Shown: positions 1 through 607, counted from the stretch's first letter. The stretch: DNA of 607 bases from Candidatus Hydrogenedens sp. (GCA_049968235.1 JBMFRC010000055.1:1-607); one strand, 5' to 3'. The notes: generated by a model from the letters alone, not told the origin. Program-made: numbers and translations.

Positions 1-60
1 AACTCTCGGCTCGCTCTGATATAACCGTTTCTAAATCTCAATAGGCTCGCTACATCGAAA

Positions 61-450
61 TTGTTGCTTAGTCTATTTAGGCTCGCTATATTAAAGTTGT
101 TGCTAAATCTCCATAGGCTCGCTAAAACTTCCTTGTTGCTTTTATTTTCTCGGCTCGCTAACTCTATCTTGTTGCTCCCCCTTTTCAGGCTCGCTGTTTT
201 AAACCTGCCTCTCTTCATAGTTTGGCTTGCTTCCAATTCACTGTTGCTGTCCATCTTACGGCTCGCTACAAGGATTTTGTTGCTTCTGTGCGATAGGCTC
301 GCTATTTTAAAGTTGTTTCTCTTCGCCAATCGGCTCGCTAAAACTTCCTTGTTGCTTTTATTTTCTCGGCTCGCTAAAATGGTATTGTTGCTTTGGAAAA
401 ATCGGCTCACTCACCTTAGTTTGTTGCTCTTATGTTTTAGGCTCGCTTAG
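61..450 (+). CDS. Hypothetical ORF in phase with the repeat, encoding a leucine-rich 12-aa periodic peptide (R-L-A-x3-L-L-L-x3)n; probably an artefact of the tandem array rather than a real gene
   Basis: The frame-1 open stretch actually runs 25..450: there is a TAA at 22-24 and a TAG at 448-450, and TTG at 61 is the first possible start. In this frame GGCTCGCT reads xGG-CTC-GCT (R/W-L-A) and TTGTTGCT reads TTG-TTG-CTx (L-L-L). Three observations argue against coding. The array continues upstream and downstream of the ORF with equal conservation. Synonymous positions inside the anchors are invariant while whole codons between them are free. Unit 14 is 35 bp, which would shift the frame. About 73 variable codons in an AT-rich background carry no stop, which is a weak argument for coding, but the effective sample is reduced by duplicated units. 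Confidence 0.2.
   Translation: MLLSLFRLAILKLLLNLHRLAKTSLLLLFSRLANSILLLPLFRLAVLNLPLFIVWLASNSLLLSILRLATRILLLLCDRLAILKLFLFANRLAKTSLLLLFSRLAKMVLLLWKNRLTHLSLLLLCFRLA
116..161. repeat. Exact 46-bp copy (unit 4 plus the start of unit 5) of 332-377; part of a wider ~82-bp near-duplicated block 80-161 / 296-377
   Basis: Base-by-base comparison shows 116-161 (ggctcgctaaaacttccttgttgcttttattttctcggctcgctaa) is identical to 332-377. The offset is exactly 216 bp, i.e. 6 units. The flanking bases at 115/331 and 162/378 differ. Confidence 0.9.
332..377. repeat. Second copy of the exact 46-bp block (unit 10 plus the start of unit 11)
   Basis: Identical to 116-161. The preceding unit 9 (296-331) matches unit 3 (80-115) at 23 of 25 positions over anchor-1, V1 and anchor-2, but its 11-nt V2 is unrelated (3/11). 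Confidence 0.9.
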
Positions 451-607
451 TCCTTTTTGTTGCTAAAATTATATTGGCTCGCTTCCACCTATTGTTGCTC
501 TTGCTCTCTCGGCTCGCTAAAACTTCTTTGTTGCTTCAAATTCATTGGCTCGCTCAAAGGATATTGTTGCTTGTTTTTGTTTGGCTCGCTATAAAGTCAT
601 TGTTGCT

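What the first reader, a model, noticed from the sequence alone, without database searches (positions are those of the whole stretch)
205..248. The two anchors are related (shared 3' T-Y-G-C-T core), and a hybrid anchor suggests an ancestral ~18-bp unit
GGCTCGCT and TTGTTGCT both end in T[C/T]GCT. At 224-231 the anchor-1 slot holds ggcTTgct, an exact chimera of the 5' half of anchor 1 and the 3' half of anchor 2. The 36-bp unit is built from two unequal half-units (anchor to anchor 17 bp, then 19 bp). This is consistent with duplication and divergence of a single ~18-bp motif-plus-spacer unit. If so, only the xxxTYGCT core plus its phase may be functional, and the GGC versus TTG 5' halves may distinguish two binding specificities.
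Basis: partly seen in the sequence, partly recalled or inferred. Interest (0 to 1): 0.5.

Follow-up and report, generated by a model that had tools for sequence, protein, structure and literature searches.

The report
TIGR guide-RNA array, read backwards
The 36-bp repeat is a fragment of a TIGR array, a known kind of guide-RNA array read from the opposite strand. Its two short conserved "anchors" look alike because each is gripped by one half of a symmetric protein pair. The "hybrid" anchor is an ordinary inherited point mutation.

Summary
The facts in the finding are correct. GGCTCGCT and TTGTTGCT alternate 17 then 19 bp apart in a 36-bp unit, both end in T-Y-G-C-T, and 224-231 reads GGCTTGCT.

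The element is not a DNA binding-site array. It is a dual-repeat TIGR array (Faure et al. 2025), transcribed from the minus strand. Each unit is: edge repeat AGCGAGCC-D-A (10 nt), 9-nt spacer A, loop repeat AGCAACAA (8 nt), 9-nt spacer B.

Related contigs carry the same array directly after a 262-aa gene. That protein is a nuclease-less TasA:
- it matches TasR 9MTY by sequence (E 1e-19);
- its AF2 model (pLDDT 93) best matches TasR and TasH;
- it keeps the Y/H RNA-processing residues.

The anchor similarity is the known pseudo-symmetry of tigRNAs. Edge and loop share a 5' AG(C) and a 3' C-N-A, and these ends change together across related arrays (UG...CA in a distant relative).

The "hybrid" is one G-to-A change in an old, decaying unit. 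That unit is inherited in four related array sequences (three independent), and the same change arose independently in a fifth array. No 18-bp single-motif array was found in the five relative arrays examined, and the spacers show no half-period similarity.

One side lead: the arrays differ at the tasA-proximal end and decay at the distal end.

The parts
1..607 (-). Fragment of a dual-repeat TIGR array, cut at both ends. It holds 17 units of edge (10 nt), spacer A (9), loop (8) and spacer B (9), read on the minus strand.
   Evidence: Phase and unit parsing come, and the position-by-position profile of 70 unique units. The same repeats, plus five units shared with this window, lie directly downstream of tasA in L003 or in the same-array fragment L005.
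222..231 (-). Edge repeat of the 'hybrid' unit. It reads AGCAAGCCAA in RNA sense, with G4 changed to A. On the plus strand this is TT + GGCTTGCT.
   Evidence: The same variant sits in the same unit, beside the same neighbour, in L002:658, L003:1452 and L005:109. An independent AGCAAGCC occurs at L017:1680.
213..221 (-). Spacer A of the hybrid unit (ACUAUGAAG).
   Evidence: Unit parsing.
205..212 (-). Decayed loop repeat of the hybrid unit. It reads AGAGGCAG instead of AGCAACAA (4 mismatches).
   Evidence: This unit has 5 repeat mismatches, the most in the window.
196..204 (-). Spacer B of the hybrid unit (GUUUAAAAC).
232..240 (-). Spacer B of the preceding unit (UGAAUUGGA).
   Evidence: This unit is shared with L002, L003 and L005.
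241..248 (-). Loop repeat of the preceding unit, in the variant form AGCAACAG.
258..267 (-). Edge repeat of the preceding unit (AGCGAGCCGU).
484..518 (-). The single 35-nt unit. Its spacer B is only 8 nt, which breaks every reading frame through the array.
124..159 (-). One of two identical copies of a unit (AGCGAGCCGAGAAAAUAAAAGCAACAAGGAAGUUUU). The other copy lies at 340-375. Together they cause the 108-bp higher-order period that TRF reports.
340..375 (-). Second copy of the duplicated unit.

Best explanation
The window is part of a dual-repeat TIGR (tandem interspaced guide RNA) array. It most likely lies on a mobile element of a Fervidobacterium-like thermophile and belongs to a nuclease-less TasA protein.

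**Shown here**
- The array has the anatomy of a TIGR array.
- In related contigs it lies between tasA and a small downstream gene, in the same orientation as both.
- The neighbouring protein is a Tas (Nop-domain) protein without a nuclease domain, and it keeps the Y/H processing residues.
- Edge and loop repeats share their end motifs.

**Inferred from published work on other TIGR systems**
- The minus strand is transcribed together with tasA.
- A TasA dimer binds the transcript. One protomer holds the ends of the edge repeat (AG...C-N-A) and the other holds the same motifs of the loop repeat.
- The Y/H dyad cuts inside each edge, near AGCG|AGCC, and releases 36-nt tigRNAs.
- The two 9-nt spacers pair with opposite strands of adjacent half-sites on target DNA.
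- Lacking a nuclease, the complex binds and blocks its target, for example by repressing transcription.

On this reading the similarity of the two anchors is the RNA imprint of a symmetric protein dimer. The 17/19 asymmetry arises because the edge has two more bases between its end motifs than the loop. The hybrid anchor is a G4-to-A point mutation at the presumed cleavage junction of an old unit.
For: **Array anatomy**
- The 36-bp unit holds two alternating conserved blocks and two spacers without information.
- Position 10 (A in 81%) and position 9 (never C) extend the edge to 10 nt. That leaves two 9-nt spacers, as Faure et al. describe: 8-12-nt repeats, 9-nt spacers and 36-nt tigRNAs.

**Genomic context**
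- Pattern scans found the same array only in a Fervidobacterium MAG contig (L001) and a metagenome contig (L002).
- L003, L004 and L006 show the gene order tasA, array, small ORF. The first, degenerate edge overlaps the tasA stop codon.

**The neighbouring protein**
- The 262-aa protein matches 9mty_A at E 1.1e-19 over residues 125-324 only, so it lacks the N-terminal RuvC domain. It matches TasH 21kl_A at E 4e-5. 9MTY is the TasR complex.
- The AF2 model was built on P0005, which is 97% identical to the L003 protein. Its pLDDT is 93.2.
- The best fold matches are TasR 9mty (E 9e-11), then the TasH structures, IS621 recombinase and Nop5.
- Y240 and H247 align with SpTasH Y289 and H296, the processing dyad.

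**Comparison with related arrays**
- L017: AGCGAGCCA / AGCAACA, 34 nt.
- L016: AGCGAGC.A / AGA..TA.
- L011: AGTGAACA / AG..TTA.
- L015: AGCGAGCCAA / AGC.CCA.
- L018: TGAGTCA / TG.AACCCA.
- The start and end motifs agree between edge and loop within each array and change together between arrays.
- The edge 3:6 pair is C:G here, U:A in L011 and A:U in L018.

**RNA properties**
- The sense RNA is unstructured (z = +2.15), as expected for the dual-repeat type rather than the stem-loop type.
Against: - The window itself holds no tas gene. Its assignment rests on identical repeats and on five shared units with arrays that have one.
- No expression, processing or binding data exist for this system.
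- No target was found for any spacer.
- The box-D-like dinucleotide is AG here, not the UG described for TasR arrays.
- The array is followed by a ribosome-binding site and a gene, not by the terminator described as typical.
- Pfam gave no significant hit for the protein.
Confidence: 0.93

Rival explanations
1. Ancestral half-unit duplication. The 36-bp unit arose by duplication and divergence of one ~18-bp motif-plus-spacer module, and the anchor similarity is a relic of that event. This concerns origin only and is compatible with the TIGR reading.
For: - The unit is pseudo-two-fold: each half is a repeat plus a 9-nt spacer.
- Edge and loop share 5' AGC.A and 3' C-N-A.
- Published work shows that spacers A and B can be swapped and still function.
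- Units re-assort by halves more often than shuffles predict.
Against: - The similarity is confined to the protein-contact ends and is explained by binding to a symmetric dimer.
- It shrinks to AG...A in L011 and L016, so the extra matches here (C3, A5) are not conserved.
- None of the five relative arrays examined has a single-motif ~18-bp period.
- Spacer-only autocorrelation at lags 17-19 is at background.
- The hybrid anchor, offered as the link between the two anchors, is an inherited point mutation.
Confidence: 0.2
2. A DNA-level array of protein-binding sites, such as replication iterons or a partition centromere of a plasmid or phage, bound by one or two DNA-binding proteins.
For: - The array consists of short conserved motifs in strict phase with variable spacers.
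- It sits on mobile-element DNA next to a DUF927 helicase/primase-like gene in L001 and near a methylase gene in L002.
Against: - The neighbour conserved across loci is a Tas protein, not an initiator or a ParR/ParB-type protein.
- The DUF927 gene is a neighbour in only one locus.
- Related arrays have periods of 34-36 bp with exactly 9-nt spacers and repeat ends that change together, which is the published tigRNA design.
- Twenty-nine or more sites with unrelated spacers is unlike known iteron sets.
Confidence: 0.03
3. A protein-coding 12-residue tandem repeat. Candidates are the frame A-S-x4-S-N-x4 on the minus strand or the frame R-L-A...L-L-L on the plus strand.
For: - Stop-free runs of about 140 codons occur on both strands.
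- In L015 and L007 a few units lie inside a called ORF.
Against: - The runs are what shuffled spacers give (P = 0.06).
- The 35-nt unit breaks the frame in the window. Related arrays hold units of 34, 35, 37 and 38 nt and have stops in every frame.
- The anchors are invariant at synonymous positions while the spacers are random.
- No gene with the 61-450 product is on record.
Confidence: 0.02
4. An unusual CRISPR array or other tandem satellite.
For: - It has a repeat-spacer look.
- Its diversity is polarised along the array.
Against: - The repeats are 8-10 nt and of two kinds, and the spacers are 9 nt.
- No cas genes appear in any related locus.
- There is no Rfam match.
- A satellite would diverge evenly across the unit rather than in blocks of 2 bits next to blocks of 0 bits.
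Confidence: 0.01

Closest known systems
Dual-repeat TIGR-Tas systems, TasA subtype (Faure et al., Science 2025, PMC12045711; Xu et al., bioRxiv 10.64898/2026.09.09.750476)
   Same: - The unit is 36 nt, with two alternating short repeats (edge and loop) and two 9-nt spacers.
- The array adjoins a Nop-domain protein without a nuclease.
- Edge and loop share their end motifs.
- The Y/H processing dyad is present.
- The precursor RNA is unstructured.
- The system sits on a mobile element.
   Different: - The 5' motif is AG rather than UG, and the 3' motif is C-N-A rather than CCA.
- The arrays are long (29 units in L002) against the usual 5-15.
- TasA carries a three-stranded beta insertion (residues 116-149) with cysteines.
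- The array is followed by a conserved small ORF rather than a terminator.
- The host lineage is Thermotogota, which neither paper mentions in its main text.
Archaeal box C/D sRNAs with Nop5
   Same: - Guide RNAs are pseudo-symmetric, with two guide segments flanked by C/D and C'/D' motifs.
- The RNA is bound by a dimer of Nop-domain protein.
- Nop5 appears among the fold matches (rank 23).
   Different: - Box C/D sRNAs use k-turns with L7Ae and fibrillarin and guide RNA methylation.
- Their box sequences are RUGAUGA and CUGA.
- They are not arranged in strict 36-nt tandem arrays.
IS110/IS621 bridge RNA recombinases
   Same: - The RNA-binding C-terminal fold is the same. IS621 matches at E about 2e-5, and homologues carry PF02371.
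- The guides are split.
   Different: - The protein here has no DEDD/RuvC domain, and no transposon ends were seen.
- Bridge RNAs are single structured units, not arrays.
CRISPR arrays
   Same: - Repeat-spacer array beside its effector gene, processed into unit guides.
- Here, as in CRISPR arrays, units differ at the effector-proximal end and are shared and decayed at the far end.
   Different: - CRISPR arrays have one repeat of 25-36 nt and one spacer of about 30-40 nt.
- They come with Cas proteins and known adaptation machinery.
- The guide pairs with a single DNA strand.
Plasmid and phage iterons or centromere repeats
   Same: Phased short direct repeats on mobile DNA.
   Different: - Those repeats act as double-stranded DNA sites.
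- Copies are few and spacers are not hypervariable.
- Partner proteins are Rep or Par proteins, which are not the conserved neighbour here.

Membership tests
TIGR array, dual-repeat type | Two distinct alternating repeats of 8-12 nt separated by ~9-nt spacers, giving a unit of about 36 nt | tested here: met
   The edge is 10 nt, spacer A 9 nt, the loop 8 nt and spacer B 9 nt. The window holds 17 units, and 70 unique units were profiled. The definition was read.
TIGR array, dual-repeat type | The array lies next to a gene for a Nop-domain Tas protein | tested here: met
   This cannot be tested inside the 607-bp window. In L003, L004 and L006 the same array starts at the stop codon of a 262-aa gene. 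That protein matches TasR 9mty at E 1.1e-19 and TasH at E 4e-5. The top fold matches are TasR and TasH. The window shares five units with L003 or the same-array fragment L005.
TIGR array, dual-repeat type | Edge and loop repeats share box D-like 5' and box C-like 3' motifs that covary between arrays | tested here: met
   Here the motifs are AG(C)...C-D-A in the edge and AG(C)...C-A-A in the loop. The other four AG-type arrays (L011, L015, L016, L017) and one UG...CA array (L018) each keep the same ends in both repeats. Both repeats are one base shorter in the 34-nt relatives L016 and L017.
TIGR array, dual-repeat type | No palindromic stems in place of the edge repeat (this separates the dual-repeat type from the stem-loop type) | tested here: met
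   The minus-strand RNA folds worse than shuffled sequence (z = +2.15). The edges are constant, not variable palindromes.
TIGR array, dual-repeat type | The array begins with a 5'-truncated edge and ends with a 3'-truncated edge followed by a terminator | tested here: inconclusive
   L017 and L015 end in AGCG followed by T-rich sequence. L003 begins with a degenerate ...AAGCC-TA at the tasA stop and ends in AGCGAAAT, followed by a ribosome-binding site and a gene rather than a terminator. The window is cut at both ends.
TIGR array, dual-repeat type | The Tas protein carries the C-terminal Tyr/His dyad that processes pre-tigRNA | tested here: met
   Y240 and H247 of the 262-aa protein align with SpTasH Y289 and H296 (alignment; residues named in PMC13421893). 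Conservation of the dyad in dual-repeat systems is stated.
TIGR array, dual-repeat type | The array is transcribed and processed into 36-nt tigRNAs that start and end inside edge repeats | not testable with these tools
   This needs small-RNA sequencing. The only indirect support is gene orientation and the half-edges at array ends.
TIGR array, dual-repeat type | Spacers A and B pair with opposite strands of adjacent half-sites on target DNA | tested here: inconclusive
   No match with 2 or fewer mismatches was found in 86.8 kb of fetched loci. Exact 18-mers for one conserved unit gave 3 hits in IMG/VR in each geometry, which is uninformative.
TasA (nuclease-less Tas) | Coiled coil plus Nop domain, with no RuvC or HNH domain | tested here: met
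   The match to TasR covers TasR residues 125-324 only. The model is a helical hairpin plus Nop-like domain with a three-stranded beta insertion. Homologues P0017-P0025 carry an N-terminal HNH-like CxxC/HH segment that is absent here.
CRISPR array | A single repeat of 25-36 nt with spacers of similar size, plus cas genes | tested here: not met
   There are two repeats of 8-10 nt and the spacers are 9 nt. No Cas families appear among the Pfam-annotated genes of the related loci.
Protein-coding tandem repeat | An open frame kept across the array in relatives | tested here: not met
   Units of 34, 35, 37 and 38 nt occur, and every frame has stops. The open runs in the window are at chance level (P = 0.06).

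The most novel reading that the evidence does not exclude
Comparing these arrays may give the first evidence on how TIGR arrays gain and lose units, which both the 2025 paper and the 2026 preprint call unknown.

- The four arrays whose start is present have near-identical tasA 3' ends.
- Their tasA-proximal units are almost entirely different from array to array and have perfect repeats.
- Their distal units are shared between arrays and are decayed.
- Units also re-assort by halves: the same spacer B appears with different spacer A partners.

This would fit polarised gain of units at the tasA end plus recombination at the 8-10-nt repeats.
Probability: 0.3. Interest if true: 0.6.

Novelty: new member of a known kind. 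Interest (0 to 1): 0.3.

Why it matters
For the scan, this explains the finding. A strictly phased array of two short motifs with random spacers is the signature of a TIGR array read on the wrong strand. The likeness of the two motifs is the published pseudo-symmetry of tigRNAs.

For the TIGR field the gain is modest.
- It adds a TasA system on a mobile element linked to a Thermotogota thermophile.
- Its box-D-like motif is AG rather than UG.
- Its arrays are unusually long.
- Several array variants are close enough to compare unit by unit. Such sets are what is needed to work out how TIGR arrays acquire spacers and what they target.

Tried and rejected
**Searches that found nothing**
- Rfam at E up to 10 gave no match.
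- blastn against the phage and plasmid collections gave no match.
- The two-unit pattern was absent from IMG/VR.
- A look-up of the 129-aa plus-strand ORF found no such gene on record.
- Homologue searches with the DUF927 fragment returned only the query itself.
- A TasA-based scan of viral contigs confirmed no locus.

**Readings considered and dropped**
- Coding repeat. The S-E-P/Q-Q frame has about 15 stops in the window, and the long open runs are at chance level.
- Sigma-54 or sigma-70 promoter arrays and iterons. I dropped these on reading the motif spacing and once the Tas neighbour was found. No promoter scan was run.
- A replication origin beside the DUF927 helicase. This was my working idea. 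I dropped it because that gene is a neighbour in only one locus, while tasA is the conserved one.

**Target searches**
- No match was found in the fetched loci.
- Two IMG/VR scans for unit 22 gave three exact hits in each geometry. I had roughly estimated a few chance hits per 18-mer without knowing the collection's size. I did not examine the hits further.

**Other**
- L007-L009 and L013-L014 showed no long array by k-mer or TRF scans. L007 keeps only 2-3 remnant units.

Full report
**1. The observation**

The window consists entirely of a 36-bp tandem array (TRF).
- In phase from position 8 there are 17 anchor-1 slots. Fifteen read GGCTCGCT, one reads GGCTTGCT (224) and one GGCTCACT (404).
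- There are 17 anchor-2 slots, each 17 bp after anchor 1 and 19 bp before the next. Thirteen read TTGTTGCT exactly.
- One unit is 35 bp long.

So the stated facts hold. Treated as one 8-mer family, the 34 slots are invariant at plus-strand positions 7-8 and nearly so at positions 4 and 6.

From this window alone the likeness of the two anchors is weak evidence.
- Four identities in eight has P = 0.17.
- Autocorrelation is z = 8.3 at lag 36 but only 2.6 and 2.2 at lags 17 and 19, and 1.0 at lag 18.
- With the anchors masked, the spacers are at background for every one of these lags.

**2. What the element is not**
- No frame is open through the array.
- The longest stop-free run, 141 codons, is what shuffled spacers give (P = 0.06).
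- The 35-bp unit shifts the frame.
- There is no Rfam match, and no similar DNA in the phage or plasmid collections.

**3. Finding relatives**

A two-unit pattern scan found one genome contig, from a Fervidobacterium sp. MAG (L001), and one metagenome contig (L002). It found none in IMG/VR.

In both contigs the array reads in the window's minus direction and is followed by a ribosome-binding site and a gene.
- In L001 that gene encodes a DUF927 helicase-like protein.
- In L002 it is a 116-aa ORF, followed by a convergent D12 adenine methylase gene.

Homologues of the 116-aa ORF led to L003-L006. There, a 262-aa gene ends about 26 bp before the first full AGCGAGCC, in the same orientation. A TTGACA-17-TATAAT promoter lies upstream of that gene, read directly.

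**4. The neighbouring protein is a Tas protein**
- The 262-aa protein matches PDB 9mty_A at E 1.1e-19 over 9mty residues 125-324. It matches TasH (21kl_A) at E 4e-5.
- 9MTY is the TasR-tigRNA-DNA complex of Faure et al..
- An AlphaFold model was built on P0005, which is 97% identical, using 23 homologues. Its pLDDT is 93.2.
- The best PDB fold matches are TasR (E 9e-11), eight TasH chains, the IS621 and ISCro4 bridge-RNA recombinases, and Nop5.
- The protein lacks the N-terminal RuvC domain of TasR. It also lacks the HNH-like segment seen in homologues P0017-P0025. It is therefore a TasA.
- Its Y240 and H247 align with SpTasH Y289 and H296, the catalytic dyad for pre-tigRNA processing. That dyad is reported as conserved in dual-repeat systems.

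**5. Anatomy of the unit in RNA sense (window minus strand)**

I profiled 70 distinct 36-nt units from the window, L001-L003, L005 and L006.

| Positions | Element | Profile |
|---|---|---|
| 1-8 | Edge, core | AGCGAGCC, 1.6-2.0 bits |
| 9 | Edge | never C |
| 10 | Edge | A in 81% |
| 11-19 | Spacer A | no information |
| 20-27 | Loop | AGCAACAA |
| 28-36 | Spacer B | no information |

So the unit is a 10-nt edge, a 9-nt spacer A, an 8-nt loop and a 9-nt spacer B. This matches the published description: alternating 8-12-nt repeats, 9-nt spacers and 36-nt tigRNAs that start and end inside an edge. The sense RNA is less structured than shuffled sequence (z = +2.15), which fits the dual-repeat type rather than the stem-loop type.

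**6. Why the two anchors look alike**

Faure et al. show three things:
- The 36-nt tigRNA is pseudo-symmetric. The edge binds one protomer of a symmetric Tas dimer and the loop binds the other, through the same motifs at the start (box D) and end (box C) of each repeat.
- These motifs covary between edge and loop across arrays.
- Swapping spacers A and B leaves function intact.

Arrays next to TasA homologues confirm the pattern.

| Locus | TasA identity | Edge | Loop | Unit |
|---|---|---|---|---|
| L017 | 41% | AGCGAGCCA | AGCAACA | 34 nt |
| L016 | 46% | AGCGAGC.A | AGA..TA | 34 nt |
| L011 | 43% | AGTGAACA | AG..TTA | 34 nt |
| L015 | 53% | AGCGAGCCAA | AGC.CCA | 36 nt |
| L018 | 30% | TGAGTCA | TG.AACCCA | 36 nt |

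- Within each array the two repeats start and end alike. Between arrays the ends change together.
- In the 34-nt arrays L016 and L017 both repeats are one base shorter than in the window.
- In the window-type arrays, L015, L016 and L017 the edge is two bases longer than the loop. That difference produces the 19/17 split.
- Only AG and the terminal A are shared in L011 and L016. The extra identities in this window (C3, A5) are therefore not required.
- The edge positions 3 and 6 form C:G here, U:A in L011 and A:U in L018. This is consistent with the extra covarying edge pair that Faure et al. describe, though my register across families is by eye.

**7. The hybrid anchor**

In RNA sense it reads AGCAAGCC, a G4-to-A transition.
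- The unit that carries it keeps the same neighbour in the window, L002, L003/L004 and L005.
- Its loop is also decayed (AGAGGCAG here, AGAGACAG elsewhere).
- With five repeat mismatches it is the most degenerate unit in the window.
- Other single-base edge variants are scattered through the arrays: AGTGAGCC, AGCGAACC, AGCGAGCT and AGCGAGAC.
- An independent AGCAAGCC occurs in the L017 array.

One of the eight possible transitions in the edge makes it more loop-like. With about a dozen variant edges on record, such a chimera is expected by chance. Arrays end in the half-edge AGCG (L015, L017) and begin with (G)AGCC (L003, L007, L015). G4 therefore lies at the presumed cleavage junction. Whether the change impairs processing is inference only.

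**8. Verdict on the interpretation**

Four points do not hold:
- The element is an RNA array on the other strand.
- The non-shared parts are functional.
- The hybrid is a point mutation.
- None of the relative arrays examined has a single-motif ~18-bp period.

An ancestral half-unit duplication remains possible but untested.

**9. Likely function**

By analogy with other TasA systems, which repress transcription in an RNA-guided, sequence-specific and reversible way, this TasA-tigRNA complex should bind DNA without cutting it. The mobile-element settings suggest competition between elements or self-regulation:
- a DUF927 helicase gene in L001;
- a methylase gene in L002 and L003;
- integrase, RecT and type IV secretion genes around the homologue in L007.

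No target was found.

**10. Side observations**
- The four arrays whose start is present (L001, L002, L003, L006) share near-identical tasA 3' ends. Their tasA-proximal units differ almost completely, while their distal units are shared.
- Repeat decay and off-length units increase toward the distal end (L002 rho 0.63, P 2e-4; L006 rho 0.57, P 0.03).
- Pairs of units share spacer B but not spacer A more often than shuffles predict: 21 observed, against a mean of 6 and a maximum of 14.
- How TIGR arrays acquire spacers is stated as unknown in both papers, so this is worth a systematic test.
- A small ORF follows the array in this clade. Its C-terminal domain is clearly conserved between L015 and L007 (E 1e-11). 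Its similarity to the L002 ORF is weak (E 0.33).

Noticed in passing
L002:48-1090, L003:1128-1880, L005:1-680, L006:341-916, L001:48-263; window 1-607: The arrays differ in a polarised way.
- Units next to tasA are almost all unique to each array and have perfect repeats.
- Units at the far end are shared between arrays and are decayed, with off-length units (L002 rho 0.63, P 2e-4).
- This resembles leader-end turnover in CRISPR arrays. How TIGR arrays gain units is unknown.
   Followed up: partly
window 124-159 / 511-546, 44-79 / 80-115 / 8-43 (minus strand units); also L003, L005: Units re-assort by halves.
- Twenty-one unit pairs share spacer B (2 or fewer mismatches) while their spacer A sequences are unrelated. 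Shuffles give a mean of 6 and a maximum of 14.
- This points either to recombination at the short repeats or to related half-site targets.
   Followed up: partly
L002:1117-1467, L003:1912-2262, L006:931-1227, L015:1262-1717, L007:4843-5145: A small ORF of 98-151 aa with no known family always follows the array in this TasA clade.
- Its C-terminal ~55 residues are conserved between L015 and L007 (E 1e-11). The similarity to L002 is weak.
- In L015 and L007 the called ORF begins inside the array, so a few units lie in frame with it.
   Followed up: partly
L003:1-110: A second, unrelated tandem repeat lies upstream of the tasA promoter. It consists of about four copies of GTGAAATTTTT plus two copies of TTTTGGCTTG. 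A consensus TTGACA-17-TATAAT promoter follows at L003:251-279.
   Followed up: no
L007:165-14841 (GCA_027051655.1, JALTWZ010000033.1): A TasA homologue (50% identity) sits between an integrase/DEAD-helicase/RecT module and an F-type type IV secretion module (TraN, TraU, TraC). This looks like an integrative conjugative element. Only 2-3 array units remain there.
   Followed up: no
L003:313-1098 protein residues 116-149 (model mb7e21f2b2f76): TasA of this clade carries a three-stranded beta insertion with cysteines (CxC...H...CxxC in homologues, three Cys in this protein). It sits where other homologues have different insertions. It may be a zinc ribbon.
   Followed up: no
L011:4400-4770 and 5620-5790: A related TasA (43% identity) has 34-nt arrays on both sides of its gene. 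The last upstream unit overlaps the ribosome-binding site and start codon.
   Followed up: no
L001:1-47 and L002:1-47: Two independent assemblies end at exactly the same base, inside the last codons of tasA (GTAGCAAGAGAGAAAGCC...). This is probably an assembly break caused by strain variation upstream, but I did not check it.
   Followed up: no
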